Below are positions 44,043-64,000 of a DNA stretch of 64,000 bases, piece after piece (the stretch's first letter is position 1; the number at the start of each line of letters is the position of its first letter). The stretch is taken from positions 6,541-70,540 of the forward strand of contig CABUHS010000010.1 of NCBI GenBank assembly GCA_902491535.1. The letters run 5' to 3'. Origin of the DNA: an uncultured Eubacteriales bacterium. Lineage in GTDB: Bacteria > Bacillota > Clostridia > Oscillospirales > CAG-272. A program made the translations under genes and the position numbers. The notes beneath the pieces are model-generated. The model was not told the origin of the DNA, searched no databases, and worked only from the letters and a program-made list of their open reading frames with translations.

Positions 44043-44255
44043 TATTCCGTTTTCTTTTGTACCATAGTTTTATCACGCCCTTTCAATTTGATTGAATGCA
44101 ATATTATAAAATTTCCACCTTATCCCAATAAACTCCACCTTTCTGTTTTCAAGAATGCGGAGTTAATATAAAAAGCAAGGTTTTATTTGGCAAGAAAAAA
44201 TGCAAATCAATCTAATGTTCTGCTTATCTAAAAGATATTTTGCTTGTTAGAGATA

Positions 44256-47369: not shown

Positions 47370-47372
47370 TGA

Positions 47373-48005
47373 TTAAGCCCCCTTTACAATAGCGATAACG
47401 GCAATAATAATTGAAACAAGAGAAGCAATAGAAGCAAACAGACCGAAAAGATAATTGCGATTATAAAACCTGTCGACCTCTATACTTGCCATTCGGAACA
47501 AACGAGACAAAATAAAAGCAATGAAACCATATAAAATTAAAAATATGTTTTGATACCACGGCAATTGAATCATGTTTATCATTATAAATTGTGTAGGTAC
47601 AACTGCAATAAATAATATAGAAAGAATCAATAAACACCATTTCATTAGCCGAAAGAATAATGAAATGAATGATTTTAACAGTGCTAAAGAAGCTCTATCT
47701 CCCTTTATATCTTTTTTGGGCAAGAACAATATTTTTATGAATACCTTTATCTCATTAAAAAACTTTTTGATTTTGCTCGTATGCTCCTTGTATCCTATTT
47801 TATCACGCCATTCTGCAAGAGTAGCTTTGCGTTGCTCTTCCTCTTTTTGCACTTTTATTTCTTCAGCCTCTACAATAGCGCAAGCAATGATGTGCTGTAT
47901 TTCTTCCGCACTCATATTTTCCGGCAGATTCATATTGACCGATTGCAAAGGTTTTGAAGCAGTATTTTGTTTTGCTTTTTTCTTGTTTTTGCCTTTTCCC
48001 ATCAA
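47373..48005 (-). CDS. Unknown membrane protein embedded between hsdS and hsdR
   Basis: 210 aa with a Lys/Glu-rich N-terminal 75 aa, then 3-4 hydrophobic helices. A 4-nt ATGA overlap joins it to hsdS, and a 3-nt gap separates it from hsdR. Confidence 0.6.
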   Translation of the reverse strand: MMGKGKNKKKAKQNTASKPLQSVNMNLPENMSAEEIQHIIACAIVEAEEIKVQKEEEQRKATLAEWRDKIGYKEHTSKIKKFFNEIKVFIKILFLPKKDIKGDRASLALLKSFISLFFRLMKWCLLILSILFIAVVPTQFIMINMIQLPWYQNIFLILYGFIAFILSRLFRMASIEVDRFYNRNYLFGLFASIASLVSIIIAVIAIVKGA

Positions 48006-49180
48006 CTTGTTTTCTCCTTAAAAGTCAATAGCTTGTTTCTGTAATATTCATATTGTTTTTGCCTTGCTTCGATTTCGGCGGGTATACCAATTTTGAGATC
48101 AGTGCAAATCGCCTCAAAATTATCAAGGACATTAACAAGGCGTTCCTGTACATCTAATGGCGGAATTGATATAAATATCCTACCTATGTCATCTTTGTTG
48201 ATTTTTGTTGGAGTTGCATTCCAAAGTATGCGCTTTGCCAGTTCTGATCTGCCGATACCGCTTTCTAAGTAATGCTTTAAATATTTACTGCTTAAAATAC
48301 TATGGTTAGGGCGTAACAAAGCAAGCGAAACATAATACGCCAAATCATTGTCATTTTCCACAATTGCACATTTACCAATAACACCTGCCGTAATCCTTGT
48401 CATAAATAAATCACCAGTATGTGGTTTTATTTTGAACTTTGCAAACGCCTCTGTGGAAATGAATTTTTTTGTAGCATAAAGATTGTCTATATCTTCAACA
48501 CTTACAAAAGGTACGCCGTTTTCAGTATATTCTGGAGTCTGATGCGTTCCGTCATACACCTCGCATACCGCTCCAAGTGTTACCTTTTCTACAGGCATAT
48601 TTTGTTCAAGCAATGTATCTCTATAATACTCATACTGTTTTTTTCTTGCCGTAAGCTCTGCCGTAAGCTCTGCCGTAAGCTCTGTGAAATTGTCCAATAT
48701 ACGGACAATTTCACGCTGTACAGGCAGCGGTGGAACAGGAATTATAAAATCCTCTGTAATTGATAAAGATATTTGTGGTAACGATCCCATTCCAGAAGCC
48801 GCAGTTCGGAAGTATTCCATATTATTCTTTAATACATAATAAAGATATTTAACCGAGGTTATTTCATCGGAAGTATACGCCCACATCTCATTTTTAAAAG
48901 TAAAGGATTTATCATAAAACACAGCATCAATCACACCACGAGACTGAACTAAAACTGCAGGAACTCTTGTTATATTTGCATTTGAGATATCTTTTTCGAC
49001 AGCATTAATAACTGTCTTTCCTCCTGCAAACACCCGAATTTCTCCATTAGGATTCTCTATTTGCTTCATTTTGGCGGCTGTTATGGGTGTACCCTTGAGC
49101 CTTTTATACACTTCTTTGATTTTTTTATATTCCACGCCGTTCGGACAAAATTCCTGCAACAATTTTTCAAGGTTGCTCAT
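48002..49180 (-). CDS. hsdS: Type I restriction enzyme, S (specificity) subunit, IC-like with a TAEL repeat spacer
   Basis: It has two target-recognition halves separated by the conserved FTELTAELTAELTARKKQYEYY, and the C-terminus repeats ...ARQKQYEYYRNKLL. The start at 49180 (MSNLEKLL) follows a GGAG RBS; the longest ORF would start at 49246. Confidence 0.9.
   Translation of the reverse strand: MSNLEKLLQEFCPNGVEYKKIKEVYKRLKGTPITAAKMKQIENPNGEIRVFAGGKTVINAVEKDISNANITRVPAVLVQSRGVIDAVFYDKSFTFKNEMWAYTSDEITSVKYLYYVLKNNMEYFRTAASGMGSLPQISLSITEDFIIPVPPLPVQREIVRILDNFTELTAELTAELTARKKQYEYYRDTLLEQNMPVEKVTLGAVCEVYDGTHQTPEYTENGVPFVSVEDIDNLYATKKFISTEAFAKFKIKPHTGDLFMTRITAGVIGKCAIVENDNDLAYYVSLALLRPNHSILSSKYLKHYLESGIGRSELAKRILWNATPTKINKDDIGRIFISIPPLDVQERLVNVLDNFEAICTDLKIGIPAEIEARQKQYEYYRNKLLTFKEKTS
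48648..48683 (-). repeat. Three tandem 12-nt repeats inside hsdS encoding (TAEL)n
   Basis: gccgtaagctct occurs three times on the plus strand (48648, 48660, 48672). Confidence 0.9.
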
Positions 49181-50081
49181 GACCTTCTCCTTTTTCAGTA
49201 ACTTCCGGAATAGTGATGTTATATAACGATTCCATATTACTAACACACATCGGATATATAATATAGTCCCACGGCAACAATTTTATCAGATATGGTATGT
49301 TTTCTGTCCGAATGACCTCATACCTCTCTTGATTAATAAAAATCACATACTTTATTTCGTCTCTGAATTGATAAACATATTCCAAAAAATTTTTATCCCT
49401 ACTGAGCCGATACTCTTTAAATTCTTCTTGTTCCCGCATATCACCGTGTGACATACCGTCTATCCAGTCGTGATAAACATTTTCGCACATTGCAAGAGCA
49501 AATTCTGAATATTCGATCATAAATATACCGATTTCTTTTGAACCGGTATATTGTTTGCAACTCTCCAAATGATGTTTCCAGTTGCTTTTTAATGACTTAA
49601 CTAAAAACTCATAAGTATGTACTGGATTTGTATGTGCCCACGATTTTGAACGCACCTCATCAAAGCTCGGAGTTTCATTCCACTCTTGCATAATCTTTTC
49701 TGTTTCTGACTCTACTTTTGATATAAATATACTTTCTTCCTTTTTGTGAACAGAGCCTTTTCTGTTGGTTTGAGACGAGGTTATCTGAAAATGTTCTATA
49801 AATCCATTGTCAAAAACAAAATCAGGAAACTTGCTTAAATTAGAATTAGCTTTAGCTATTCGCAAAATATTTTCAAATTCTTTCCGATCGCGCTCCAAAA
49901 GACCGAAATATGATTTACGGCAATCTGAATTAACAAAATAAGTTCTTTCATTTTTGAACTCGTCATCTGACACATCTAAATAAGTTTTATGTGTAAATGG
50001 ATTCTTCATAGGTTGACCGTTTTTGCAGAATATTGCTTCTTTAAGAATATTCAGACACTTTAATTCTTGATCACCACGCAT
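49167..50081 (-). CDS. Unknown protein embedded between hsdM and hsdS
   Basis: 304 aa with no motif I can assign, no TM segment and no P-loop. A 3-nt gap follows hsdM, and it overlaps the hsdS start by 14 nt. Confidence 0.6.
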   Translation of the reverse strand: MRGDQELKCLNILKEAIFCKNGQPMKNPFTHKTYLDVSDDEFKNERTYFVNSDCRKSYFGLLERDRKEFENILRIAKANSNLSKFPDFVFDNGFIEHFQITSSQTNRKGSVHKKEESIFISKVESETEKIMQEWNETPSFDEVRSKSWAHTNPVHTYEFLVKSLKSNWKHHLESCKQYTGSKEIGIFMIEYSEFALAMCENVYHDWIDGMSHGDMREQEEFKEYRLSRDKNFLEYVYQFRDEIKYVIFINQERYEVIRTENIPYLIKLLPWDYIIYPMCVSNMESLYNITIPEVTEKGEGHEQP

Positions 50082-50084
50082 AAT

Positions 50085-51677
50085 TTACCCCTCAATCTCC
50101 TTAATAATCCTATCAATCTCGTCCCGTAACACTTGTTCCCGTGCTACGATTTCAGCAATTTCCGCATTCAGTTTCACAATATCGATTTTCTCACGGGTAT
50201 CCTCTGCCTCTACATAGGTGGAAACCGAAAGGTTATAGGCGTTCTGCTCGTTGCCTACCTCATCGTTTGGCACAAGACGGCTGAAATACTGCTCGTCCTT
50301 TCTTTCCGCGGCGGCAGTAACGATACGCTGAATGTTCGCTTCGGAAAGTCGGTTATTTTTCGTCACCTTTACAAATTCCCGTGAAGCGTCTATAAACAGA
50401 ATGGAATTATCCGTTTTGTTCTTTTTCAAAAGCATAATATCAACAGATATGGTGACATTGAGGAAAAGATTTGACGGCAGTTGAATGATAGCGTCCACAT
50501 AGTTGTTATCCACAAGGTATTTGCGGATTTTCTGCTCTGCGCCGCCGCGGTACATGATGCCTGGGAAACAGACGATCGCCGCCGCTCCGTTGTTAGCAAG
50601 CCATGAAAGGCTATGCATAATAAACGCCATATCGCCTTTGGACGCAGGCGCAAGCACCCCGGCGGGAGAAAATCGAATATCGTTTATTAACAGCGAATTT
50701 TTATCCCCCTCCCACGGAACAGAGAACGGCGGATTGGAAACGATCAGCTCAAAAGGCTGGTCGTCCCAGTGCTGTGGGCTGAGCAGCGTATCTTCACGCA
50801 CAATGCTGAATTTATCGAAATCAATGTTATGTAAAAACATATTGATACGGCAAAGGTTATAGGTAGTCAGGTCGATCTCCTGCCCGAAAAATCCCTGTTC
50901 AATATTTTCTTTACCCAAAACCTTTTCAACCTTCAACAGAAGCGAACCCGAACCGCAGGCAGGGTCATATACCTTGTTGATTCTTGTCTTTCCGATTGTG
51001 CCGAGTCGGGCAAGCAGTTCGGAGACATCCGCAGGAGTAAAATACTGGCCGCCCTTTTTGCCTGCGTTGGCGGCATACATACCCATCAGATATTCGTATG
51101 CGTCGCCGAACAGATCGGGGTTGATACCGTCCGCCTGAAACAACGGCATTTTTTCTACGCCGTTCAAAAGCTCTGCAAGCACCTTGTTTCTCTTGGCTAC
51201 TGTTTCTCCGATGGATTTGCTGTTTACATCGAAATCGTCAAACAGTCCGGCAAAATCATTTTCCGCTTCACCGCTGGCGGCGCTGCTCTCAATATGGTTA
51301 AAAACGCGTTCTAAGGTTTCGTTTAGGTTTTCGTCCTTATCCGCACGGGCACGTACATTGCAGAAAAGCTCGCTCGGCAAGATGAAAAATCCCTTTTCCT
51401 GCACCAGTCCCTCGCGGGCAGATTCTGCCTCCTCATCGGACATCTTTGCATAATCAAAATCGGGGTTGGGTTCTCCTCTTGCAATAGCAGCGGCTCGCTC
51501 ACCTTTGTTGATATAGGCGGCAAAATTTTCGGAAATATAGCGGTAAAACATTGTACCTAAAACATAGGACTTGAAATCCCACTCGGACACATGCCCCGCG
51601 TGAACAAGGTCGGTAGCAATTTTATATATCGTGCGGAACAGCTCGTCCCGCTCCTGATCTTTCTTTATGTCAGCCAT
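50085..51677 (-). CDS. hsdM: Type I restriction enzyme, M subunit (N6-adenine DNA methyltransferase)
   Basis: 530 aa with SAM motif VYDPACGSGSLL and catalytic motif IVSNPPFS, plus an HsdM N-terminal domain. Confidence 0.93.
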   Translation of the reverse strand: MADIKKDQERDELFRTIYKIATDLVHAGHVSEWDFKSYVLGTMFYRYISENFAAYINKGERAAAIARGEPNPDFDYAKMSDEEAESAREGLVQEKGFFILPSELFCNVRARADKDENLNETLERVFNHIESSAASGEAENDFAGLFDDFDVNSKSIGETVAKRNKVLAELLNGVEKMPLFQADGINPDLFGDAYEYLMGMYAANAGKKGGQYFTPADVSELLARLGTIGKTRINKVYDPACGSGSLLLKVEKVLGKENIEQGFFGQEIDLTTYNLCRINMFLHNIDFDKFSIVREDTLLSPQHWDDQPFELIVSNPPFSVPWEGDKNSLLINDIRFSPAGVLAPASKGDMAFIMHSLSWLANNGAAAIVCFPGIMYRGGAEQKIRKYLVDNNYVDAIIQLPSNLFLNVTISVDIMLLKKNKTDNSILFIDASREFVKVTKNNRLSEANIQRIVTAAAERKDEQYFSRLVPNDEVGNEQNAYNLSVSTYVEAEDTREKIDIVKLNAEIAEIVAREQVLRDEIDRIIKEIEG

Positions 51678-51682
51678 TGATA

Positions 51683-51904
51683 TTACTCCTTATCTTTAAG
51701 CCATTCAGACTCTATTTCTTCAAAAGGGAAACCCCTGCTTTCGCAATAAGCCTTGATTTTCTTCATAGCCGTAATATTCGGCTTGGTTTTTCCGTTTTCC
51801 CAGCGATTTATCGTACCCACAGATACATTCAGCAGTTTAGCAAACTCTTCTTGTGATAGAAGCGCCCTTTTACGCATATTCCGTATCAACTCACCTAATG
51901 ACAT
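51683..51904 (-). CDS. Small XRE-family HTH protein, first gene of the R-M operon (controller-like)
   Basis: 73 aa with HTH LSQEEFAKLLNVSVGTINRWENG. It ends 5 nt before the hsdM start. Confidence 0.8.
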   Translation of the reverse strand: MSLGELIRNMRKRALLSQEEFAKLLNVSVGTINRWENGKTKPNITAMKKIKAYCESRGFPFEEIESEWLKDKE

Positions 51905-51926
51905 TGTTCTGCCGTTCTCCTTTCAA

Positions 51927-51976
51927 AAGGTTGCTACTATTATAACATAAACCTATCATTTTTTCAAGGTTGCTGC
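51927..51976 (-). promoter_or_regulatory. Promoter of the HTH-hsd operon flanked by a direct-repeat operator candidate
   Basis: On the minus strand, TTGAAA (51962-51967), a 17-nt spacer, then TATAAT (51939-51944). The repeat aaggttgct(a/g)c occurs at 51927-51937 and 51966-51976, bracketing the promoter. Confidence 0.55.
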
Positions 51977-52470
51977 TCATTCTTATATTTACTTGCATTT
52001 TATCGGTACGCCTGCAATATTGTAGGCGTACCTTTTGATATATACAAAGGTGGAATCTGTAATAAAGTAAGGAGGAATTTCAATGCTCAGAAAAGCAATA
52101 TCAGAAAGTGATTGAGCAAAACAGCATTCGGCTCACGAGGCTGTGTGTGACCGAAAGAGTGCAGATTTAGATGGAAAAAGAATGTACAAGAAGAATCTGC
52201 AAGCAGCCAACCGTCAGCGATAGACGGACATTTATCGTACCTCCACCGTACAGGAGCTTTGTACGGCAATGTTTCCGGGATTTCCGTTGTAAGAACAAAT
52301 CCCTGCCGAACGCTTACTATACAAGCGGCAGATTTATGATCTGTATCGGCATTGCGCAGTCAGCTTTGTCTGACGCTCTGTTATTCAGAGTTGCGCTGGG
52401 GCAGTCTTCACTAATGGGAAGATGAGTCCATAGTCCTAACCTCTTTTACAAATGAATAGTAGTTCTCTGC

Positions 52471-53060
52471 GATGAAATGAATGACCAGCTTTTCGGAATG
52501 ATACCATCTTTTCGATATGATAATGATTATCTTTCCGATATGATGTATGACCTTCCTTTTGTCGCCGTTTCTATCGGGCGACAGCAAGATAGAAACGGCG
52601 GCGAGGAATCGTCCGAGAGGCCGTGCGGCAAGGCATTCAGGGATTACAAGAAATGAAAACGGGAGAAACGGCAGGTAAAGTCGCTGAAACTGCCAATGGG
52701 TAAACTATGCCTTGCCGCGTTATGATATGCCGTTTCATGTGATAAATGAATCTATACTTCGGAATGATAATTTAATATGACATACTTTTCGGAAGTCACT
52801 CAGGATTTATCATAGATTTGTATTTGCACGCCTGCGGCGCGTTCCGGCTGTTTGATGTTCAATGATAAGCATGCAAAGAGAACCCGTCATTAAACATCAA
52901 ACTGTCGGCTGAAAATATCCCTCTTAAAGATTCGTATCAGATTGCAAACCCTTCATTTCGATATGATTTATGACCGTCCTTTCAGAATGATGCGTTTTCA
53001 AAATACATACCGTTTTGGAAGAATATGATTTCATTTCGGAATGATCGCAAAAATATGACC
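52471..53060 (+). repeat. Iteron-like field: at least 8 same-orientation copies of TTCG(G/A)(A/T)ATGAT, often followed by TATGAC(C)
   Basis: Copies lie at 52492, 52511, 52533, 52758, 52957, 52981 and 53035, with variants at 52788 and 53015. TATGACC-like half sites lie at 52481, 52546, 52775, 52969 and 53053. No credible ORF is present. Confidence 0.75.
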
Positions 53061-53072
53061 TTCAATTTCAAA

Positions 53073-53116
53073 GGCGGCGACAGGAGATTTTTTTCTGTCG
53101 CCGCCGAATTTTTTTG
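53073..53116 (+). terminator. Intrinsic terminator-like hairpin upstream of the tyrosine recombinase gene
   Basis: 11-bp GC-rich stem ggcggcgacag / ctgtcgccgcc followed by gaattttttt. Confidence 0.6.
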
Positions 53117-53212
53117 CTTTGCAAAAATTCGCTCTATTTTTTACTTGCCAAAATAGATACTCCTTTTCATATTCTTTTTGCCTGAATCAAAAAGGCAAAA
53201 AATTATGAAGGA

Positions 53213-54280
53213 GTGATGCCAATGAGAGAAATCTCAAAAAAGATGGACATTGTAACCGACATTTTGGACACCGCCTTCGACAAGCCGTGGGAAAAGTATT
53301 CTGCTGAAGAATACAAAATCCAGCTTGAAGAAACAAAGTCCAAAGTCCGGGAACTAACGCCCGAACAAGAGCTGAAATTGATGAATAAGCGTATGAATCT
53401 GCGAATACAGGTGACCGCCATTTACAAAAAGGACAGACATGGCAGCCAAGCAACCCGCAAGCGATACTATCAAGCCGCCTGCTATGCCTGTGATTATATT
53501 GCCGGCACCTGTAATTTACAGAAATTCGCAAACTTTCATCCAAAGCATTTCCGTGAAGTTGCAGAGTATTGGAAAACAACAAAAGAACTAAATACGGTTT
53601 ATACCGAGCTTACAGGTTTGCGCAAATATTGTGAGTATGCAGGGTGTAAATACAAGATGCCTGAAAACAAGGAACTGAATCTGCCGAAGCGCGAACCGAC
53701 AAAATATAACCGCGCATGGCTACCTCACGAAATTCAGAAAGCAAAAGAACTTGCTGAAACAATGGGTAGATTCGATGTCCGGGATGCTATTGAACTCGGA
53801 GAAAAATTGGGTCTTCGGATTATCGAAGCCTGTCAGTTCAAGGTCGGAGATGTGAAATCCGCACTCGGTTGGGGCGGTTTGGAAATCAAGAGTAAGGGCG
53901 GTCAGATACGGTTTGTCCCGATTGAAACTGAAGAACAGAAGGAGCTTCTGCAACGCCTGTATCGTGAAGCAAAAGAAAAAGGGTTAATGGACGACGATTT
54001 TATTCTGAGCAAGACAATCAAATACGGTCCGCGTATGGAAAAGAAGTCTATCGAAAACTGGATATACAATCATCGCAAAAAGTTTACAGACCCAAATCGA
54101 GAGCAAACGATAAAGCGCGGTAAAAAGCCGCGGGTTAAAAACATTGTCTTCCACGGGCTTCGCCACAGCTACACACAGGAACGGGGCAAACATTTGCAAG
54201 GCGATCCTAGAAGACAGCAGAAGCTCAGCGAGGGCTTGGGTCATCATCGGTTGTCGGTGACGAATATTTACAAAGAATAA
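53213..54280 (+). CDS. Tyrosine recombinase / phage-integrase family protein
   Basis: About 352-355 aa. It has C-terminal catalytic motifs HGLRHSY and LGHHRLSVTNIY (the Tyr nucleophile sits near the end). The likely start is ATG 53222, 8 nt after AAGGAG. Confidence 0.8.
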   Translation: MMPMREISKKMDIVTDILDTAFDKPWEKYSAEEYKIQLEETKSKVRELTPEQELKLMNKRMNLRIQVTAIYKKDRHGSQATRKRYYQAACYACDYIAGTCNLQKFANFHPKHFREVAEYWKTTKELNTVYTELTGLRKYCEYAGCKYKMPENKELNLPKREPTKYNRAWLPHEIQKAKELAETMGRFDVRDAIELGEKLGLRIIEACQFKVGDVKSALGWGGLEIKSKGGQIRFVPIETEEQKELLQRLYREAKEKGLMDDDFILSKTIKYGPRMEKKSIENWIYNHRKKFTDPNREQTIKRGKKPRVKNIVFHGLRHSYTQERGKHLQGDPRRQQKLSEGLGHHRLSVTNIYKE

Positions 54281-54291
54281 GGAGGAGATAA

Positions 54292-54459
54292 GTGGGCAAA
54301 GAGGTTAAAATCGTTCTCAAATCCCATATACCTGAAGATGAAATCGAAGCATTAGCGAAATGCTTCCTGCCGGACATATTAGACTTTTTTGAATCCGAAG
54401 AAGGCAGACAAGAATTTGAACAGTGGAAAAAGAAACAATCTGAAAAAAGCAATAAATAG
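54292..54459 (+). CDS. Small hypothetical protein (55 aa) coupled to the recombinase gene
   Basis: An AAGGAGGA RBS overlaps the recombinase stop and the start is GTG. The translation is VGKEVKIVLKSHIPEDEIEALAKCFLPDILDFFESEEGRQEFEQWKKKQSEKSNK, followed by a terminator. It is not in the ORF track because it is under 60 aa. Confidence 0.55.
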   Translation: MGKEVKIVLKSHIPEDEIEALAKCFLPDILDFFESEEGRQEFEQWKKKQSEKSNK

Positions 54460-54462
54460 ATA

Positions 54463-54505
54463 ACGACGGTACGAAGACTAATCCTCGTACCGTCGTCATT
54501 TTCTT
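54463..54505 (+). terminator. Intrinsic terminator
   Basis: 12-bp stem acgacggtacga / tcgtaccgtcgt followed by cattttcttt. Confidence 0.8.
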
Positions 54506-54524
54506 TAACTACGCAGTTTCATTG

Positions 54525-54575
54525 AAAAAAACAACAAACCCGAACGTTTCACCGATTGGTAAAAGGTTCGGGTTT
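54525..54575 (-). terminator. Terminator downstream (minus strand) of the tRNA-Leu 3' fragment
   Basis: 9-bp stem aacccgaac / gttcgggtt; on the minus strand it is followed by gttgttttttt. Confidence 0.65.
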
Positions 54576-54583
54576 GAATGCTT

Positions 54584-54642
54584 TGGTGCGGGTAAAAGGA
54601 CTTGAACCTTCACGAAGTTGCCCCCACTAGAACCTGAATCTA
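54584..54642 (-). other. 3' fragment (about 59 nt) of a tRNA-Leu(CAG)-like gene; probable att-site remnant, not a functional tRNA
   Basis: The minus strand reads TAGATTCAGGTTCTAGTGGGGGCAACTTCGTGAAGGTTCAAGTCCTTTTACCCGCACCA. This gives an anticodon loop, a long variable arm, a T-arm GGTTCAAGTCC, the acceptor 3' strand and an encoded CCA. No matching 5' acceptor strand or D-arm follows. Confidence 0.7.
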
Positions 54643-55107
54643 AATTGTATATTATTAAAAGGGAAGGAAAGCTCTGAATTATCGCAAATTAATGCAAAAT
54701 ACCCTATAAATTGCTTAATTATATAATAATAAGGACGTTTCGATTTTATTGTGTGTTAGAATTTCCTGTGATTTCGTTAGAAAAATCGTTAGACAGACAA
54801 TCACCGTTTTAGCCCCGTTTTTACTACGCTTAATTTTATCATTGACGTAACAGAAGATCAACTTATTTATACTGTTTTTATAAAAAAGAAATACCAAGTA
54901 TAATAGCTTTGCCAGATATTTTTGGTGTAACAAAACAATTAGCGTATATTTATTCGTTCCTGAAATCTTGCAAGACAGCGATACTACATACATGTCAGAG
55001 ATATTCATGCGGAGACATATATACTCCCTAAATGCAGAAAAAATAAAAACAGTACTGTTTATGTGAATTGTTGAATAAAAAATAATAAATATTTTTTTGT
55101 AAATATA

Positions 55108-55136
55108 TTGACATAGTTTGGCTAATATGTTAAAAT
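55108..55136 (+). promoter_or_regulatory. Strong sigma-A promoter with an extended -10 at the head of the island
   Basis: TTGACA (55108-55113), a 17-nt spacer ending in TGT, then TAAAAT (55131-55136). Confidence 0.55.
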
Positions 55137-55716
55137 ACAAACAAGATAAAGTCAGATTAATAAATCTAACGATATCTTATATATAATACCCAGTTTAATA
55201 TTTCTCAGGAATTACCTTTTAATAAGAACAGGACATCCCCCTAACGTATCACTTGATTTTTTCAGTATAAGGTATGAGGCTTGTTATGAAAAACTGTTTT
55301 TCCAAGGCGTGTATATCCCTTAATGAAATAACGGTATCAGACTGCAAAAATGATGCAATAAATGCTATTGCTATGTCCAAATTTAATATGTGCGTAAACA
55401 GCGCATTGCTTGCTTGATAGAGGCTTGCTTTGCGCTGTTTTGTCATATAATACTCTATCATGTGCTTGATTATATTTTTATAACAAAACATTAATTATAC
55501 TAGAAATAATTGGAGTGTTTTATGATATTGTTGATTATTATGAAGAAAAGGATTAATATGTGGGGTTAGAAATTCAAAAAAATCAATACTGAATATTCAA
55601 TATTCTAATCCAATTTAATATACAATTTTTTTAGTACGATGTCATAGGTATTGAATAGCATAAGCGTATTAAACAGAAACATTAAGAAGTATAAAACTTG
55701 CGGAGGAAATAAAAAA

Positions 55717-57117
55717 ATGTCAAGGAACTTAAAAATGTCTAAGTATAACTTTATCTGTTTAGATAAAGAAGGAGATTTAATTTTATATAATTTTCTAAAT
55801 GGAATATCAAGTTTAACTAAGATAAAAAAATCTGATATTGATAGTTTCACTAATGGATTTTTGACGAATTCTGAGAAACTTTATGCGGCTTGTAATGAAT
55901 ACAAAGAAATGGCTAATACATTGCTTAAGTTAGGTATATTAGTAGATGATGACACAGACGAAAGTGTTTTATATGATGCAAAACAGTATAGCGAAATTTA
56001 TGATACAAAGCTATACCTTACTATTTTCCCAACAGGAAAGTGTAATTTTAGATGCCCATACTGTTTCGAAACCTCACAAGATTTTAGTCGAGATACAATG
56101 ACGAGTGATTCGCAGGATGCAATACTTAAATTTGTTCAAAAGACAATATCTAATCATAGAATGCTTCATGTATCTTGGTTCGGTGGTGAACCGTTAGTAG
56201 CATCCGAAGTAGTTGAAAATTTATCCGATAAATTTATCCAAATTTGCAATGTAAGACATATACCCTATTCTGCTGATATGGTAACAAACGGCTTTTTACT
56301 TGATTCTAATATGTTTGATACACTTTATAAATTACAGGTATATGATTATATGATTACTATTGATGGATTTAAAAAACAGCATGATAAAAGGAGATTTACA
56401 TATGATGGTAAGGGTTCATATGATACAATTATGGATAACTTGTTAAAGATACGAAATAATAAGCAGTATAAATTTGCTAATATAATGATTCGTGTCAACA
56501 TGTCAACTGGATTTTTGGAAATGCTTGACGAATTTGTGAATTTTCTTGGTTCATCATTTGCCGATGATCCGCGATTCAAATTCATGTTTGTGCCTGTAGT
56601 CAAGTTTTCTAGTTCTCATTTTTCAAATGAAATTATCTATTCTAATCATAAAGAATTGTACATGCGTCTTTCTAAAAATGATGTTTATACGAATAAACTA
56701 TATCCTAATATGCTAAAATTAACTTCAATACTTCCGCAGCAAAAGTGCCCGGCATGCTTAAAAAATTCATATGTTATTACTTCCGATTTGAGTGTGTATA
56801 AATGTAATGCTCACTATGATTTTGATATCAATAAAATCGGGCGAGTAAATTTAAATGGTGATCTATTAATTGATGAAACTCTTCATAGAAGGTGGTACTT
56901 AATGAAAAAGTCTATTCAGAGAATACCCGAATCTTGTAATGACTGTTTCTACTCTCCTTGTTGTCTAAATATCGATTCTGGTTGTCCAGTCAGCTATCTT
57001 AAAACGAATCCAGATGTAACATTATGTCCGTTGAAAGATGAAAATAAAAAAAATAATATTGTTGAAACAATTTTATACGCTGCTGATATATATCCCTGTA
57101 CGACACTTGCATTATAA
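55717..57117 (+). CDS. Radical SAM / SPASM-domain peptide maturase
   Basis: The start at 55717 follows a GGAGGA RBS. It has a CxxxCxxC cluster (GKCNFRCPYCFE) and a roughly 100-aa N-terminal extension (possible RiPP recognition element). The C-terminal Cys-rich SPASM region is CPACLKN...YKCNAH...CNDCFYSPCCLNIDSGCP. Confidence 0.88.
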   Translation: MSRNLKMSKYNFICLDKEGDLILYNFLNGISSLTKIKKSDIDSFTNGFLTNSEKLYAACNEYKEMANTLLKLGILVDDDTDESVLYDAKQYSEIYDTKLYLTIFPTGKCNFRCPYCFETSQDFSRDTMTSDSQDAILKFVQKTISNHRMLHVSWFGGEPLVASEVVENLSDKFIQICNVRHIPYSADMVTNGFLLDSNMFDTLYKLQVYDYMITIDGFKKQHDKRRFTYDGKGSYDTIMDNLLKIRNNKQYKFANIMIRVNMSTGFLEMLDEFVNFLGSSFADDPRFKFMFVPVVKFSSSHFSNEIIYSNHKELYMRLSKNDVYTNKLYPNMLKLTSILPQQKCPACLKNSYVITSDLSVYKCNAHYDFDINKIGRVNLNGDLLIDETLHRRWYLMKKSIQRIPESCNDCFYSPCCLNIDSGCPVSYLKTNPDVTLCPLKDENKKNNIVETILYAADIYPCTTLAL

Positions 57118-57284
57118 TTTTATGTATATATAATTATAATCATAAAATCAAACTACTTTTCAATTTAAATATTGTAACTTTAAAATGGTATTATATCGTA
57201 AATTTCAAAATTTTGTTACAAAAGATTTATATAAATATTAGTATAATTGTTTTTAAAATTTGATTTAGAGGAGGTAAATAGTAT

Positions 57285-57542
57285 ATGATATTTACATATC
57301 AAATGCTTGTCAAAATATTAGTTGATAAATTAGGCTTTGTTCTTCTTGATGGTAGACAAGATGATTTTGCTATTAATGAATACGTTACTGATTCTGTAAC
57401 GTTTATCAAATTAATTATTGCTATAGAAGAGACTATTGGAAAAGAATTAACAGATGACTTTCTTGATTACGAAATGTTGAGTTCCGCAAAAGGCTTTGCG
57501 GCAAAAATAGATTGTTTCATTGATTCTTCTAAGGATCAATAA
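57285..57542 (+). CDS. Acyl carrier protein-related small protein
   Basis: 85 aa. TDSVTFIKLIIAIEETIGKELTDDFL matches the ACP helix II region with a DS(L/V) phosphopantetheine-site-like serine. A good RBS (GAGGAGG) precedes it. Confidence 0.7.
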   Translation: MIFTYQMLVKILVDKLGFVLLDGRQDDFAINEYVTDSVTFIKLIIAIEETIGKELTDDFLDYEMLSSAKGFAAKIDCFIDSSKDQ

Positions 57543-57605
57543 ATACTATTAAATACTGGGATTAATTAATTTTGAGCGTTACTATAGTTTTTATAAAAGA
57601 ACTAA

Positions 57606-57620
57606 AAACGCGACGCGTTT
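57606..57620. promoter_or_regulatory. Perfect 15-bp palindrome AAACGCG-A-CGCGTTT just upstream of the precursor RBS (operator candidate)
   Basis: It is a GC-rich dyad in an otherwise AT-rich stretch, and it ends 4 nt before AAGGAGG. Confidence 0.4.
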
Positions 57621-57640
57621 AAGAGAAGGAGGTGAATACT

Positions 57641-57775
57641 TTGAAAAAGATCTTAAAAAAGAAGATAAAATTTTCATCGAATGCTATTCGTTATTTTTCC
57701 GGTGAACTTGTTCAATATTGGAAACCAGAGAATTTTCCAGATGGTACTTCTGGTACTTGTCATTATACGTGTTAA
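57641..57775 (+). CDS. Candidate RiPP precursor peptide (44 aa), not in the ORF track
   Basis: An AAGGAGGTG RBS lies 7 nt before a TTG start. The translation is MKKILKKKIKFSSNAIRYFSGELVQYWKPENFPDGTSGTCHYTC, with a basic leader-like N-terminus and a Gly/Ser/Thr/Cys C-terminus. It lies between the ACP-like and protease genes. Confidence 0.6.
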   Translation: MKKILKKKIKFSSNAIRYFSGELVQYWKPENFPDGTSGTCHYTC

Positions 57776-58111
57776 CTATAATAATACCGTTATAAATTAT
57801 AGTAATATTGATAGTTATTCACTATGTTAAACGAAGTAATGAATGATTAGAAATGTTATAGCAGTTTTTAATCATCGCGTTATTCTCCTAATTTTAGAAG
57901 ATTGATTTTTTTGCTATGTGTATGTAGAAACTATGGTAACGCTAAGTTTTTACATATTTTGATTATTTCTTCACTGAAATAAAATTTATATATAGTATGC
58001 AGCAATAGTATATTGTTTCGTATGGGTTTGTTTTTGATAAGCGTTATTCACCCAAAAGAATAATATAATCTGCATTAACAAGTACTTTGAGAAATGAGGT
58101 GAAATAACATT

Positions 58112-59902
58112 ATGTATTATGATGTAGTAATTATTGATAGTGGAATTAATGTGAGCAATGATTTTAACATGAATGGAATTTGTATAGAAAAAAATAGTGA
58201 AGGTTTTTTGATTGATAATAATTTGAAGGATGAATTCGGACATGGAACTATTATTTACTCTATAATAAGTAAATGTATAGATCCAAGCAAAATTTACATT
58301 ATTAAACTACCTGCCAATCGCGTAGAGCTTGACGATTCTTGTTTAATTGCTGCATTGGAATATATAAAAAAGAATATTAAATGTAAAATTATTAACATTA
58401 GTTTAGGTGTAAAAAGTGGTGAAAATATAGATAAATTATATAATATATGTGCCGAAATATCAGCAATGGGGATCGTAATAGTTTCTGCTTTTGATAATGA
58501 AGGGTGTCATTCATATCCAGCTGCGTTTGATTGTGTAATTGGAGTTGATAATAAATATGATTTTAAAATTTCTACAGAATTTGATTTTGTAGAAAATAGT
58601 CCCGTAAATATCTTAGCAAAAGGAGATATACAACGTCTAACCGTTCAAGATGGCAAAATACTATTAGTCGGCGGAGCGAGTATATCGTGCGCACATATAA
58701 CTTCTATTTTAACTAAAAAAATAATTGGTAATTTAAATCTTCAAGGCGCGTTGTCATATTTAAAGTCAAAATCTAGGCATATTTATTCTTCTCATAAATT
58801 AGAGGGCGTTATAGAAACACCTCTTTTTAAGATTACAAATGCAGCGGTCTTTCCGTTTACAAAAGAGGCGCATGCATTTGTTAGATTTGCTGATATGTTG
58901 AAATTTAATATACAGTGCTATTATGATATTAAGCGTTCTGGAAAAGTAGGAAGAAAGATATCTAGTTATTATGAAGGTGTAAAGACTGAAGAATGTATTA
59001 AAGATATTAATAAAATTGATTTTTCGAATATAGACACTATTATACTTGGACACTTGGATGAATTAAATGCAGTTTCTAAACGAGATTACAAGATGGAATT
59101 AATAAGAAATGCTATTGTGAATGGTGTTAACGTTTATTCATTTGATCCTCTGGATTCGTATAGTGAGATACTAAACAATTCAGGAATAAAATATTATTAT
59201 CCAAGTGTAACAAATAACAATATACCGAAAAATACATTTGGAAAGTTATATAAAATTTCCAAACCAGTTGTTGGTATTTTTGGGACATCGTCACGACAGG
59301 GAAAATTTTCTCTGCAATTAACATTAAAGAGAGAATTGGAATCACATGGTTACGATGTAGGAACAGTTGGCACAGAGCCGCATTCGCCATTGTTCGATTT
59401 TGATGTTGTTTTTCCAATGGGATATAATTCTACTGTACGCTTGTATAATAACGAAATTGTATTATATTTGAATAATGAAATTAACAAATTATGTTTGAAT
59501 GGTAAGGAAATTATATTAGCTTCTACACAAGCACAAATTATACCTTATTATTGTAATAATTTGCTTGAATATCCGTCAATGCAATACCATTTTGCATTAG
59601 GAATAAATCCGGATGCAATAGTAATGTGCATTAACTATCATGATGAAATACAATATATTAAAAACTCTATATATGCGCTGATGGGATTAACGGATGCGAA
59701 TGTAATTGCATTTGTAATATATCCGATAACATACTCTAGTGATTGGAATGGAATATATGGTAACACAAAACATAAAATAACATATGAAGAATACAAACAG
59801 AAAGCAGACTCTTTGCTAAAAGAATTTCAAATTCCGGTTTATATGTTAGGTGATAAAGAACACATAAATGAATTGTATCAAACAATAATTAATTTCTTTT
59901 AA
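58112..59902 (+). CDS. Fusion protein: N-terminal subtilisin-like (S8) serine peptidase domain plus a roughly 370-aa C-terminal domain of unknown function (DUF1611-like by motif)
   Basis: The Asp-His-Ser triad order is VVIIDSGIN, GHGTIIYS, GGASISCAHITS. The C-terminal GIFGTSSRQGKFSLQLTLKRELESHGYDVGTVGTEPHS resembles the Gly-rich GTD..GK..T loop of DUF1611-type proteins (from memory). Confidence 0.7.
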   Translation: MYYDVVIIDSGINVSNDFNMNGICIEKNSEGFLIDNNLKDEFGHGTIIYSIISKCIDPSKIYIIKLPANRVELDDSCLIAALEYIKKNIKCKIINISLGVKSGENIDKLYNICAEISAMGIVIVSAFDNEGCHSYPAAFDCVIGVDNKYDFKISTEFDFVENSPVNILAKGDIQRLTVQDGKILLVGGASISCAHITSILTKKIIGNLNLQGALSYLKSKSRHIYSSHKLEGVIETPLFKITNAAVFPFTKEAHAFVRFADMLKFNIQCYYDIKRSGKVGRKISSYYEGVKTEECIKDINKIDFSNIDTIILGHLDELNAVSKRDYKMELIRNAIVNGVNVYSFDPLDSYSEILNNSGIKYYYPSVTNNNIPKNTFGKLYKISKPVVGIFGTSSRQGKFSLQLTLKRELESHGYDVGTVGTEPHSPLFDFDVVFPMGYNSTVRLYNNEIVLYLNNEINKLCLNGKEIILASTQAQIIPYYCNNLLEYPSMQYHFALGINPDAIVMCINYHDEIQYIKNSIYALMGLTDANVIAFVIYPITYSSDWNGIYGNTKHKITYEEYKQKADSLLKEFQIPVYMLGDKEHINELYQTIINFF

Positions 59903-59947
59903 ATATTTGCTGATAATAAGGAATGGTAAAAAGGAGATTATATTAAT

Positions 59948-60352
59948 ATGGAAGAAAAAATTAAACTTTTGTCAATAGGAAAAAAAAGGGCAAAAAAGAC
60001 GAATTTAGAGGGATGGGCGAAAATTGTAGAAAGATACGCTCCGGATATGTATGATTTGTTGTATGGAGCTGGGGAGAAGGATGCATTAAAAAAAGTTCGC
60101 GAACTCAGACCTGAGATAATATTGATATTGCCAAGTATATTGCAAAATGACTTAAAAGATGGTTTGAGTTTATTAAAAAAAATAAAGGAACTGCATCCTG
60201 AAGCAGCTGTATTTGTATGTATGGGTATGGTGGATGATGAGCAGGATGCGTTTGACGAATATAAAGCTTGTGGTGCATATAAATGCTATTCAGCACCTGT
60301 AAGTATGGATGCATTATTTCATGATATGTATGTAGCATTAAATTTGGAATGA
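59948..60352 (+). CDS. Stand-alone receiver-like (CheY-fold) protein with a degenerate phospho-acceptor site
   Basis: 134 aa. A REC-like pattern (KVRELRPEIILILPS...GLSLLKKIKELHPEAAVFVCMG...GAYKCYSAPVSMDAL) is present. However, the acidic pocket, the acceptor Asp and the conserved Lys appear replaced. Confidence 0.5.
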   Translation: MEEKIKLLSIGKKRAKKTNLEGWAKIVERYAPDMYDLLYGAGEKDALKKVRELRPEIILILPSILQNDLKDGLSLLKKIKELHPEAAVFVCMGMVDDEQDAFDEYKACGAYKCYSAPVSMDALFHDMYVALNLE

Positions 60353-60378
60353 TTAAACATGGGAGGACAATAGAAACC

Positions 60379-62164
60379 ATGAAAAGAGTAAAAAACATAC
60401 AGTTAGACAATTTGTTACTTTCCTTTAAAGAAATATGGAATTATGATAAGAGACTTATATTTCTTTTACTTGCTGATGTTTTTATAAGTGCGATACGACC
60501 GTTTCCCAACATTATTCTTTCTGGACGTATTGTTGATAGTATCGCTTATGGAAAGAATTTTTTGTCGGTTATCTTTTATATGGTTTTGATGTTTGGTATA
60601 AATTACTTTATAACAGCCATAGGTACTTTTTTGTCAAGATATAGAGAATATTTATTTATTAAGTTAAGTAACAAATTGGATAATGATGTAAATGAAAAAT
60701 GTTGATTTTGAACAGTTTAACGATTCTTCCGTTCAAGATCGTATCATGATGGTTAACCAAGCAATACGTGGAAATAATTTTTTTACTAGCCTTACTATCG
60801 TTTTTTCTACAATTTCTCAATTTGTAACCCTTATTGGAATAGTATATGTAATGACAATTTTAAATATATGGTTGTTAGCTATTGCGTTGATAGTTATTGT
60901 TTTACAGACAATATTGCATTATATGAACCTTAGGTATGATAGAAAGTATATGGAAGATTCTGTGAGCGAACGCAGGAAAATTGCTTATGTATCACAATTA
61001 ATTAAGGATATACAAAGTAAAAAAGATATTGTAATGTTTGGGATGGGTGATTACATATTAAAAAAAATCAAATCTTTTCAACAGACAATGCTAATATTCG
61101 ATAAGCGCCGAATACGGTGGGGTGGATTTATTGAGATGACTACTTATTCTTTAAACGTAGCCTTTCAAATTTTTGCTTATATATTGATTGGAATTAACGC
61201 TTTTAATAAAGATATTTCTATTGGTGATTTTACAATTGGTATTGCTTCTTTGATGAATTTTATGTCTGCATCTTCCTTTGTAACTAATAACATACTTACC
61301 TTTAACGATAATTTTTTTTATATTAGGCAGTATAAATCCTTTAATAAGCTCAGAAGCAAGTTTGATAAATCATCTTCTAATATTACGTTAAACAGCATAG
61401 ATAAAAACAAAATTGAAATAGAGTTTCGCAATGTTTCTTTTCGATATCCTAATAGTACTGCATTCGTATTAAAAAATATAAATTTGACAATAAAGAATAA
61501 TGAACGTCTTGGGATTGTGGGATATAATGGCGCAGGCAAGACAACATTCACTCTTTTGTTAACTCGTATGTACGATCCTACAGAAGGATCGATATATTTG
61601 AATGGCATAGATATTAGAAATATTGATTATAAAGAATACCAAAAGATTATTTCATCGGTTAATCAGGACTTTTCTCTTTTGGCTTTTTCTTTGTTGGAAA
61701 ATATCGCTATTACAGATATAGCATCTCAAGATGAAAGAAAAAAAGTATTGGGACTTTTAAATGATAATGGTTTACAAGAAAGAATGAGGAAGCTTTATAG
61801 AGGACTTGATACGCCGATTACAAAGACGTTGTCTGCATCAGGTGTTGATTTATCAGGGGGAGAACGTCAAAAAATCGCGGTAGTACGCGCACTTTATAAG
61901 GATTCTCCAATTCTGATACTAGATGAGCCTACATCGGCACTTGATCCAGTTGCTGAACACGAAATATTTCAGAAATTTTCAGAAATGTCCGAAGGAAAAA
62001 CAACTCTTCTTATCTCTCATAGAATATATAGCACTCGTTTTTGTGATAAAATTGCAGTTTTTGATAAGGGTGAGATAAAAGAATATGGAACGTTCGAAGA
62101 GCTAATGGGATTGAAAGGCTTATATTATGAGTTCTTTCAACAACAAGCGGAATACTTTAAATAA
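60379..62164 (+). CDS. ABC exporter, fused permease/ATPase; reading frame broken by a 1-nt shift in an A5 run (60695-60699)
   Basis: ORF 60349-60705 carries TM helices 1-2. ORF 60692-62164 carries the rest of the TMD and the NBD, with Walker A GYNGAGKTT, signature LSGGERQ and Walker B ILILDEPTS. The two ORFs are contiguous parts of one exporter. An RBS (GGGAGGA) precedes ATG 60379. Confidence 0.8.
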
Positions 62165-62375
62165 TAATAATTAGAATTTAATTTGTTAATGCAATACTGC
62201 AATATATAAACATATGACCGTCATTGCAAGAAATGAATAGTAAAGAGTAAATATTATTATCAGAATTAAGTTTATAATATTATATTTCAATGAATGGTTT
62301 AAATATTGTGTTGGTTGGTAAATACATTATAAAAATTAATTGCTTTTAAGCGGGCGGAAAGGTGTTATAATACTT

Positions 62376-63401: not shown

Positions 63402-63415
63402 ATGTTTGAATATTT

Positions 63416-63844: not shown

Positions 63845-64000
63845 ATTCTTGATAGAGTATCTTGTTGGTGTTGTGCCAACAAAAACCTGAAGGAATTAAA
63901 AAATATCTATTTGTACTTGCCTGCTTACTGGGAAAAATTAAAGGAACTTCAATCTAAAACAGACAGACCTATGAAACAGAGCGGGTCTGTTTTTGATTTA

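What the first reader, a model, noticed from the sequence alone, without database searches (positions are those of the whole stretch)
54525..54660. Displaced tRNA-Leu 3' half with its own terminator marks the island insertion point
The minus strand of 54584-54642 reads as the anticodon loop (CAG), long variable arm, T-arm and acceptor-CCA of a class II tRNA. The 5' acceptor strand and D-arm are missing. Sequence past 54642 switches abruptly to very AT-rich DNA.

On the minus strand, a stem plus U-run (54525-54575) lies downstream of the fragment and looks like the native tRNA terminator.

Established knowledge: integrases that target tRNA genes rebuild an intact tRNA at one junction and leave the displaced 3' fragment at the other.

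Inference: the RiPP island (to the right) integrated into tRNA-Leu. The intact tRNA, and probably the cognate integrase, would lie at the far end, possibly beyond 64000. The tyrosine recombinase at 53213-54280 lies on the other side of the fragment and may belong to a second element at the same hotspot.
Basis: partly seen in the sequence, partly recalled or inferred. Interest (0 to 1): 0.6.

Follow-up and report, generated by a model that had tools for sequence, protein, structure and literature searches.

The report
Split tRNA-Leu with island-borne replacement
The fragment is the real 3' part of the host's tRNA-Leu(CAG) gene, cut at the anticodon loop by an 11.9-kb mobile island that does not rebuild the gene but carries its own complete replacement tRNA, a strategy so far shown experimentally only in mycobacterial phages.

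Summary
Observation confirmed. The minus strand of 54584-54642 is the native tRNA-Leu(CAG) from the anticodon stem to CCA, 100% identical to the intact gene of two same-genus genomes, and it is followed by a strong hairpin terminator. GC falls from about 0.43 to 0.29 at 54643.

Interpretation partly right. An intact tRNA-Leu(CAG) and a 377-aa tyrosine integrase do lie at the far end, just beyond the window. But that tRNA is not rebuilt at the junction.

- The native 5' part (43 nt) also survives, behind its own consensus promoter next to rlmN.
- A 15-bp repeat, TAGATTCAGGTTCTA (the anticodon stem-loop), bounds an 11,938-bp island.
- The complete tRNA lies 122 nt inside the island and has a different anticodon stem and variable arm.
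- Joining the two flanks in silico recreates the relative's tRNA exactly.

This matches "tRNA-dependent lysogeny" (Guerrero-Bustamante and Hatfull 2024), here in a gut Clostridia island carrying a peptide-maturation gene cluster. The same cassette recurs next to related integrases in about nine other lineages, all on Leu or Ser tRNAs.

The left flank (about 42.5-54.6 kb, type I R-M plus two recombinases) is a second mobile element. So the hairpin may not be strictly native.

The parts
54584..54642 (-). Displaced 3' part of the native tRNA-Leu(CAG) gene: canonical positions 28-76 plus CCA. This is attR of island A.
   Evidence: Sequence read. 100% identical to the intact tRNAs of G002 and G003. 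Joined to the 5' part, it gives a tRNA identical to G003's.
54628..54642 (-). Left copy of the 15-bp common core TAGATTCAGGTTCTA, which is the anticodon stem-loop. The right copy lies beyond the window at window-equivalent 66566-66580 (L003 14107-14121).
   Evidence: Exact repeat found. Homology to relatives G003 and G006 ends exactly at these repeats.
54525..54575 (-). Intrinsic terminator hairpin plus U-run directly downstream of the tRNA 3' end.
   Evidence: Folds at -28.4 kcal/mol, z = -5.4. The same hairpin follows intact tRNA-Leu genes in G006, G001 and G023, and in G027 with stem changes on both sides.
54643..64000 (.). In-window part of island A, which is 11,938 bp in total and has GC about 0.29. 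The island runs on to window-equivalent 66565. Beyond the window it holds: phage-like gene fragments; a dUTPase; the tyrosine integrase (65179-66312, +); a terminator; the complete island tRNA-Leu(CAG) (66357-66443, -); and a 122-nt spacer. Then come the right core and the native 5' part (66566-66608, -), behind the host promoter next to rlmN.
   Evidence: Composition. ORFs and Pfam/PHROG hits. ARAGORN. Rfam tRNA model 53.1 bits. Sequence. Promoter and terminator.
54755..54792 (+). Candidate arm-type integrase binding repeats: GTTAGA three times, including one exact GTTAGAAAA at 54776-54784. Two more exact GTTAGAAAA copies lie in the spacer between the island tRNA and the right core (L003 13997-14016).
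   Evidence: Three exact copies in 16 kb, all within about 165 bp of a core. 0.33 expected, and only 1 of 200 shuffles reaches 3.
42565..54583 (.). Second mobile element, B, abutting the tRNA 3' end. It holds a large serine recombinase (42465-44042), a type I R-M operon (44256-51677), a non-coding repeat field, a tyrosine recombinase (53213-54280, +) and a 55-aa ORF (54292-54459, +).
   Evidence: Pfam hits. The G006 copy is 91-97% identical although G006 core genes are about 72% identical. G003 lacks it. Recombinase homologues occur in only 14 of 301 genomes of the order.

Best explanation
An 11.9-kb integrative island (A) inserted by tyrosine-integrase site-specific recombination into the anticodon stem-loop of the host's only detected tRNA-Leu(CAG) gene.

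**Structure (shown)**
- The native 5' part (43 nt) stays behind the host promoter next to rlmN.
- The native 3' part, which is the finding, is displaced 11.9 kb away.
- The island carries a complete tRNA-Leu(CAG) gene of a different allele. It sits 122 nt inside the right junction, with its own terminator and the convergent integrase gene beside it.

**Function (inferred)**
- The island tRNA complements the lost host gene.
- It is probably transcribed by read-through from the captured host tRNA promoter.
- Its altered anticodon stem keeps it from serving as a second target of the integrase.

The fragment itself is inert except as attR. Precise excision at the two cores would restore the native gene.

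Immediately downstream of the fragment lies a separate, earlier-arrived 12-kb element (B), so this locus is a tandem-insertion hotspot.
For: **The native gene is in two pieces**
- The 5' part plus core lies at L003 14107-14149, and the 3' part plus core at window 54584-54642.
- Joining the flanks gives a tRNA-Leu(CAG) identical to G003's.
- G003 is syntenic on the rlmN side at 88% up to the core edge. G006 is contiguous on the other side at 95-97%.

**The intact tRNA is foreign**
- All seven relatives examined carry the CTAGA/TCTAG stem. The island tRNA has CATGA/TCATG and a different variable arm.
- That allele is absent from 400 other genomes of the order.
- It scores 53.1 bits on the Rfam tRNA model, and it is the only tRNA-Leu(CAG) that ARAGORN finds in the assembly.

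**The integrase looks functional**
- The integrase matches Pfam Phage_integrase at 4.6e-23 and PHROG family 1 at 7.6e-66. Columns that fit the tyrosine-recombinase catalytic set (R208/R209, K243, H320, R323, H346, Y356) are invariant among 8 relatives. I assigned them by eye; no tool did.

**Expression**
- The host promoter upstream of the 5' part is a 12/12 consensus match. No promoter-like site lies on that strand in the spacer.

**Compensation rather than codon supply**
- The host uses CTG for 20% of its Leu codons. The island's own genes use it for 4%.

**The cassette recurs**
- Related integrases (35-54% identity) carry the same layout: host 5' half, spacer, complete cognate tRNA, terminator, integrase.
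- In L036 (tRNA-Leu TAG) both fragments are present, and their acceptor strands pair with each other, not with the island tRNA.
- It also appears in virome records and viral contigs (IMG/VR) on tRNA-Ser(CGA) and tRNA-Leu(CAA).

**Precedent**
- The mechanism is demonstrated experimentally in mycobacteriophages (PMC10865867).
Against: - There is no expression data or read-level evidence of excision.
- The predicted junction pattern was not found in metagenome contigs.
- The assembly is 88% complete, so a second tRNA-Leu(CAG) cannot be excluded. tRNA-Leu(UAG) might also read CUG, so essentiality is unproven.
- No excisionase was recognised.
- The island lacks phage structural genes, so "lysogeny" in the strict sense does not apply.
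- The CATGA stem allele is common in unrelated metagenomes. Its difference from the target may therefore reflect ancestry rather than selection against self-targeting.
- Three integrase relatives next to tRNA-Leu(CAG) (L027, L028, L038) show no 5' fragment, so the family is mixed.
Confidence: 0.85

Rival explanations
1. Canonical tRNA-gene island. The integrase rebuilds an intact hybrid tRNA at the far junction from host 5' and island 3' sequence, and only the 3' fragment is displaced.
For: An intact tRNA-Leu(CAG) with an adjacent integrase lies at the far end on the same strand. Its last 30 nt are identical to the fragment. Its first 28 nt equal the native 5' sequence.
Against: - A second copy of the 5' part, with the native stem-loop allele, sits 122 nt upstream of the intact tRNA, behind the host promoter.
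- Synteny with G003 ends at that copy, not at the intact tRNA.
- The flanks join into a perfect native tRNA without using the intact one.
- In the sister locus L036 the acceptor strands of the two fragments pair with each other and not with the complete tRNA.
Confidence: 0.03
2. Two-step accident rather than a designed cassette. An older canonical element left a rebuilt tRNA, or the tRNA gene was locally duplicated. A later insertion then happened to split one copy. The intact tRNA would be a historical by-product, not a compensating cargo gene.
For: The locus is a hotspot with at least two elements. The 5' 28 nt of the two copies are identical in G000.
Against: - The same order and spacing recur in about nine independent lineages on four different tRNAs and in different hosts.
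- The layout is a core, then a spacer (39 nt in L036, 122 nt here, 140-165 nt in the viral contigs), then a complete cognate tRNA 80-220 bp from the integrase gene.
- The complete tRNA differs from the native allele at the anticodon stem and variable arm, so it is not a local duplicate.
Confidence: 0.07
3. Assembly chimera. The contig wrongly joins two tRNA-Leu loci or strains of a metagenome bin.
For: The genome is a 72-contig draft, 88% complete.
Against: - Both junctions and the whole island lie on one contig.
- The junctions fall exactly at a 15-bp direct repeat that matches two independent relatives.
- Independent assemblies show the same architecture.
Confidence: 0.03

Closest known systems
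tRNA-dependent lysogeny of actinobacteriophages such as Fionnbharth (K4), LeBron (L) and Gaia (X); Guerrero-Bustamante and Hatfull, mBio 2024, PMC10865867
   Same: - A tyrosine integrase acts on an attB inside a host tRNA gene.
- The common core is short (8-17 bp there, 15 bp here), so no tRNA is rebuilt at attL or attR.
[quoted passage not shown]
- Gaia also targets a tRNA-Leu and has its tRNA downstream of int.
- Close integrase relatives use either the rebuilding or the replacing strategy.
   Different: - The host is a low-GC gut Clostridia bacterium, not an actinobacterium.
- The element is an 11.9-kb island with a radical-SAM peptide cluster and no virion genes.
- The replacement tRNA sits inside the presumed P' arm, 122 nt from the core. 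It probably uses the captured host promoter, whereas Fionnbharth's tRNA has its own promoter.
- The core is the whole anticodon stem-loop.
- All targets seen in this integrase clade are class II tRNAs (Leu, Ser).
- Nothing has been tested experimentally here.
Canonical tRNA/tmRNA-gene genomic islands (Islander database, PMC4383910; the three sites within a tRNA gene where crossover occurs, per Williams 2002, recalled from my own knowledge)
   Same: A tyrosine integrase lies next to a tRNA gene. The crossover is at the symmetric anticodon stem-loop. A displaced 3' fragment marks the distal island end. Direct repeats bound the island.
   Different: [quoted passage not shown] Here the junction is not restored, a 5' fragment also persists, and a whole extra gene is supplied.
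Lj965 prophage of Lactobacillus johnsonii (Ventura et al. 2003, as cited in PMC10865867; the paper was not held)
   Same: A Firmicutes prophage reported not to rebuild the tRNA at its junction and to carry a cognate tRNA.
   Different: I know it only from the citation and could not compare sequence or architecture. It is a full prophage, not a cargo island.

Membership tests
tRNA-dependent lysogeny / integration | An element-encoded tyrosine integrase next to the attachment site | tested here: met
   A 377-aa ORF lies 45 bp from the island tRNA. Pfam Phage_integrase 4.6e-23 plus SAM-like N-terminal domains; PHROG family 1 at 7.6e-66. Columns that I take to be the catalytic RKHRHY set are invariant among 8 relatives. 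This is my assignment by eye.
tRNA-dependent lysogeny / integration | attB overlaps a host tRNA gene | tested here: met
   The joined flanks give a tRNA-Leu(CAG) identical to G003's gene. G003 and G006 each show one uninterrupted side.
tRNA-dependent lysogeny / integration | Short common core, so that no functional tRNA is rebuilt at attL or attR | tested here: met
   The core is 15 bp. ARAGORN calls no tRNA at either junction. Rfam gives 20.4 bits (cut-off 29) at the 5' junction and no match at the 3' junction.
tRNA-dependent lysogeny / integration | [quoted passage not shown] | tested here: met
   A tRNA-Leu(CAG) lies inside the island: called by ARAGORN, 53.1 bits on the Rfam model, and a foreign allele.
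tRNA-dependent lysogeny / integration | The disrupted host tRNA is single-copy and needed, and the element tRNA is required for viability of integrants | tested here: inconclusive
   Only one tRNA-Leu(CAG) is found among the 37 tRNAs of an 88%-complete draft. CTG makes up 20% of host Leu codons. Requirement can be shown only by genetics.
tRNA-dependent lysogeny / integration | The element is a temperate phage | tested here: not met
   No capsid, tail or terminase family was matched among the ORFs scanned. PHROG matches are an integrase, a dUTPase, a PAPS-reductase-like fragment, one family of unknown function and transcriptional regulators (for the XRE gene). The cargo is a radical-SAM/ABC-transporter peptide cluster. 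So it works like tRNA-dependent lysogeny, but the element is an island or a prophage remnant.
Canonical tRNA-gene island (Islander type) | The target tRNA is regenerated at one junction from island sequence | tested here: not met
   The native 5' part is followed by non-tRNA island DNA. The complete tRNA starts 122 nt further in and has its own 5' half.
Canonical tRNA-gene island (Islander type) | A displaced tRNA fragment in direct repeat marks the distal end | tested here: met
   The 59-nt 3' fragment at 54584-54642 has the 15-bp core repeated at the other end.

The most novel reading that the evidence does not exclude
A clade of tyrosine integrases in gut Clostridia phages and islands routinely integrates into the anticodon loop of class II tRNA genes (Leu-CAG, Leu-TAG, Leu-CAA, Ser-CGA) with a minimal core. 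It always brings a complete replacement tRNA, built into the attP arm, so that on integration it lands behind the host's own tRNA promoter. If so, tRNA-dependent integration would be a common, modular strategy outside Actinobacteria. It would also be used by non-phage cargo islands, such as this peptide-cluster island. Standard tRNA-gene island finders, which expect a regenerated tRNA, would then mis-map these elements.
Probability: 0.55. Interest if true: 0.55.

Novelty: new member of a known kind. Interest (0 to 1): 0.45.

Why it matters
- **Corrected island map.** It changes how this island and its relatives should be delimited. The true ends are two 15-bp cores flanking two tRNA pieces, not a rebuilt tRNA and one fragment. 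The "intact" tRNA-Leu(CAG) that genome annotation reports for this organism is a mobile-element gene.
- **Wider reach of a recent mechanism.** Disrupting a tRNA gene and replacing it was shown experimentally only in actinobacteriophages in 2024. Here it appears in gut Clostridia, in cargo islands without virion genes, and on class II tRNAs.
- **A testable module.** The compact unit of core, arm, tRNA and integrase could be tested as an integration tool.
- **Host dependence.** While the island is integrated, the host depends on it for a tRNA. Precise excision would restore the native gene.

Tried and rejected
1. **Crossover models for a hybrid tRNA.** I first read the intact tRNA as a hybrid and worked through models such as heteroduplex in the overlap region and compensatory mutation. 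I dropped them once BLAST showed the separate native 5' fragment.
2. **A second tRNA-derived repeat further left, as the other end of element B.** Nothing above chance was found. B's ends remain undefined, and it may move by its serine recombinase.
4. **Exact search for the core plus right-arm junction in metagenome contigs.** No hit.
5. **Search for sister islands through the island tRNA allele.** More than 120 metagenome contigs hold the stem-loop. None shares the spacer, and the best full-length tRNA identity is about 90%. The origin of the island tRNA is unresolved.
6. **Testing whether virome record MT836946 (L046) is the excised attP form of the prophage in L052.** The two are 97% identical up to the core and diverge there. 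The L052 record is a 51%-complete fragment without the other arm. Inconclusive.
7. **Ventura 2003 (Lj965).** The paper was not held.
8. **Homologues of recombinase B as a tRNA-Leu-specific family.** Only G006 and a pseudogene in G211 sit next to a tRNA-Leu, so there is no general association.

Full report
**1. The observation**

The window is G000:C10:6541-70540. The minus strand of 54584-54642 reads TAGATTCAGGTTCTAGTGGGGGCAACTTCGTGAAGGTTCAAGTCCTTTTACCCGCACCA. By eye this is:
- an anticodon stem-loop (TAGA / TTCAGGT / TCTA, anticodon CAG);
- a long variable arm;
- a T-arm;
- the 3' acceptor strand, discriminator A and CCA.

ARAGORN finds no tRNA in the window, and the Rfam tRNA model gives no match up to E = 10. 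That is expected for a gene lacking its 5' third. The decisive evidence is identity: the 59-60 nt are 100% identical to the 3' part of intact tRNA-Leu(CAG) genes in two same-genus genomes, G002 and G003.

To the right, GC falls from about 0.43 to 0.26-0.32. To the left, on the tRNA strand, lies a hairpin plus U-run at 54525-54575. It folds at -28.4 kcal/mol, z = -5.4, and none of 200 shuffles folds as well.

**2. What lies at the far end**

Both exist.
- ARAGORN finds a single tRNA-Leu(CAG) in the genome, at C10 c[72897,72983]. That is window-equivalent 66357-66443, on the same strand.
- A 377-aa tyrosine integrase ends 45 bp from its 3' end.
- rlmN and a PP2C phosphatase, which are core genes, follow on the other side.

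The match to the fragment is only 86%. The last 30 nt and the anticodon loop are identical. The anticodon stem (CATGA/TCATG against CTAGA/TCTAG) and the variable arm differ, and the stem changes are compensatory.

**3. The twist: the native gene is in two pieces**

Comparing a relative's locus with contig C10 revealed a third piece. A 47-nt stretch 100% identical to the 5' part of the relative's tRNA sits 122 nt upstream of the intact tRNA.

Read on the tRNA strand, the order is as follows:
1. a perfect TTGACA-17-TATAAT promoter (12/12 matches);
2. the native 5' part, GCGGGTATGGCGGAATTGGCAGACGCGC-TAGATTCAGGTTCTA;
3. 122 nt of unrelated sequence;
4. the complete tRNA;
5. its own terminator;
6. 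the integrase gene, convergent.

The 15-nt sequence TAGATTCAGGTTCTA, the anticodon stem-loop, is present once at each end: L003 14107-14121 and window 54628-54642. The island between the two cores is 11,938 bp, counting one core.

Joining the two flanks in a script yields a tRNA-Leu(CAG) identical over 87 of 87 nt to G003's gene. G003 is syntenic with G000 on the rlmN side at 88%, exactly up to the right core. G006 is contiguous with the left flank at 95-97%, starting exactly at the tRNA.

All seven relatives' tRNA-Leu(CAG) genes carry the CTAGA/TCTAG stem. The stem-loop of the intact G000 tRNA occurs in none of 400 other genomes of the order.

So the intact tRNA is an island gene, not a rebuilt hybrid. 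It scores 53.1 bits on the Rfam tRNA model. The 5' junction reaches only 20.4 bits, below the 29-bit cut-off.

**4. Mechanism**

*Shown:*
- a tyrosine integrase in which the columns I read as the catalytic residues are invariant among relatives;
- a 15-bp common core at the symmetric anticodon stem-loop;
- a host tRNA gene split and not restored;
- a cognate tRNA carried by the island.

*Inferred: the island tRNA replaces the host function.*
- It is the only tRNA-Leu(CAG) detected.
- The host uses CTG for 20% of its Leu codons. The island's own genes use it for only 4%, so the tRNA does not serve the island's codon usage.

*Inferred: it is transcribed from the captured host promoter.* No promoter-like site lies on its strand in the spacer.

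*Inferred: the spacer and the island's left end are the attP arms.* Exact GTTAGAAAA occurs three times in 16 kb, all within about 165 bp of a core and all in one orientation. Only 0.33 copies are expected.

*Inferred: the altered anticodon stem stops the island tRNA from acting as an att site 122 nt from the real one.* This last point is weak, because the CATGA allele is common in unrelated metagenomes.

Precise excision would restore the native gene. Whether the island still excises could not be tested.

**5. It is a recurring cassette**

Integrase relatives were collected from three sources: genome contigs, GenBank virome records and viral contigs from IMG/VR. Many show the same layout of host 5' half ending in the anticodon loop, spacer, complete cognate tRNA, terminator and convergent integrase.

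| Target tRNA | Loci | Detail |
|---|---|---|
| Leu-TAG | L036, an uncultured Clostridia genome | Both fragments and the complete tRNA lie 9.8 kb apart. The fragments' acceptor strands (GCGGATG / CATCCGC) pair with each other, not with the complete tRNA (GCGGACG / CGTCCGC). |
| Ser-CGA | L045, L048, L051, L052, L056, L066, L077, L080 | Spacer of 140-165 nt |
| Leu-CAA | L061, L073, L076, L078, L082, L084, L085 | Spacer of 146 nt |

Allowing for near-duplicates, this amounts to about nine lineages, all on class II tRNAs. Three relatives next to tRNA-Leu(CAG) (L027, L028, L038) show no 5' fragment and look canonical. The family therefore mixes both strategies.

**6. Comparison with what is known**

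This is the logic of "tRNA-dependent lysogeny" (PMC10865867). There, a short core of 8-17 bp means the tRNA is not reconstructed, and a phage-encoded cognate tRNA complements the loss. The mechanism was demonstrated genetically in mycobacteriophages. The authors name Lj965 of Lactobacillus johnsonii as a possible case outside Actinobacteria, and they say that prevalence elsewhere needs investigation.

All sequence-level defining features are met here. The requirement for viability is untestable with these tools. The element is not a phage: no virion gene families were matched among its ORFs, and its cargo is a radical-SAM/ABC-transporter peptide cluster. Earlier notes of this scan describe the same cargo. 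I file it as a new member of that known kind.

It fails the defining feature of canonical tRNA-gene islands, regeneration of the target at the junction (PMC4383910 abstract).

**7. The left flank and the "native" terminator**

G006 carries window 42565-48127, 50084-52767 and 53140-54298 at 91-94% identity. The stretch from the recombinase end to the tRNA is 97% identical. Yet G006's core genes are only about 72% identical to G000's, and its tRNA has a different upstream neighbour. G003, the closer relative at 88% in core genes, lacks all of this and diverges immediately after CCA. Homologues of the 355-aa recombinase occur in only 14 of 301 genomes of the order.

The left flank is therefore a second mobile element of about 12 kb. 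It holds a large serine recombinase, a type I R-M operon, a repeat field, a tyrosine recombinase and a 55-aa ORF, and it abuts the tRNA 3' end.

The hairpin terminator was already downstream of the tRNA when island A arrived, because G006 has that state. But it may have come with element B rather than being ancestral. The same hairpin, at 91-92% identity, also follows tRNA-Leu(GAG) in G001 and G023, and a variant with stem changes on both sides follows tRNA-Leu(CAG) in G027. I leave that unexplained. No tRNA-derived repeat marking B's other end was found.

**8. Verdict**

It is wrong about how the tRNA is kept intact.

The structure is an instance of a recently described mechanism in a new host group and a new element type, with family-level support. 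The interest is moderate: this is not a new kind of system, but it is a useful extension and a correction for island mapping.

Noticed in passing
window 42565-54583: A block of about 12 kb is 91-97% identical in G006, whose core genes are only about 72% identical, and is absent from the closer relative G003. It holds a serine recombinase, a type I R-M operon, a repeat field, a tyrosine recombinase and a 55-aa ORF. It is a second mobile element abutting the tRNA-Leu 3' end. Its ends and its mobilising recombinase are unresolved.
   Followed up: partly
window 54486-54608; L017 10016-10140; L018 10014-10103; L019 9807-9925; L092 1116-1203: The hairpin and about 40 nt beyond it are 91-92% identical downstream of a different isoacceptor, tRNA-Leu(GAG), in G001 and G023. 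They are 82% identical, with stem changes on both sides, after tRNA-Leu(CAG) in G027, which belongs to another family. In G211 a similar hairpin lies between tRNA-Leu(TAG) and a decayed recombinase homologue. This is far more conserved than neighbouring coding DNA. It could be a portable terminator, or a scar left by an element end.
   Followed up: partly
window 40384-40526: A stretch of about 140 nt matches at least eight contigs of G003 at 74-93% identity. It is probably a small dispersed repeat (MITE-like) of the genus.
   Followed up: no
L046 (MT836946.1) 3641-3653 versus L052 4427: A human faecal virome record is 97% identical to a prophage contig (IMG/VR) up to the 12-nt core GACTCGAAATCG. 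Upstream of the core it has non-tRNA DNA, where the prophage has a host tRNA-Ser 5' half. It is possibly the excised attP form of a sister element.
   Followed up: partly
L003 7890-8246 and 8233-9705 (window 60349-60705 and 60692-62164): The island's ABC transporter is read as two overlapping ORFs of 118 aa and 490 aa. The larger matches only the second half of the ABC_membrane profile. Either the gene is split or frameshifted, or there is a programmed overlap.
   Followed up: no
window 27483-27533 (+): The only Rfam match above a gathering score in the window is SpF59 sRNA (ldcC RNA), at 65.2 bits.
   Followed up: no
L003 10957-11385 (window 63416-63844, -): The XRE-type regulator of the island carries a C-terminal DUF6514-like segment. 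It lies between the peptide cluster and the phage-like remnant genes (a PAPS-reductase-like fragment, PHROG family 15503 and a dUTPase). This suggests the island is a reduced prophage or satellite that kept its integration module.
   Followed up: no
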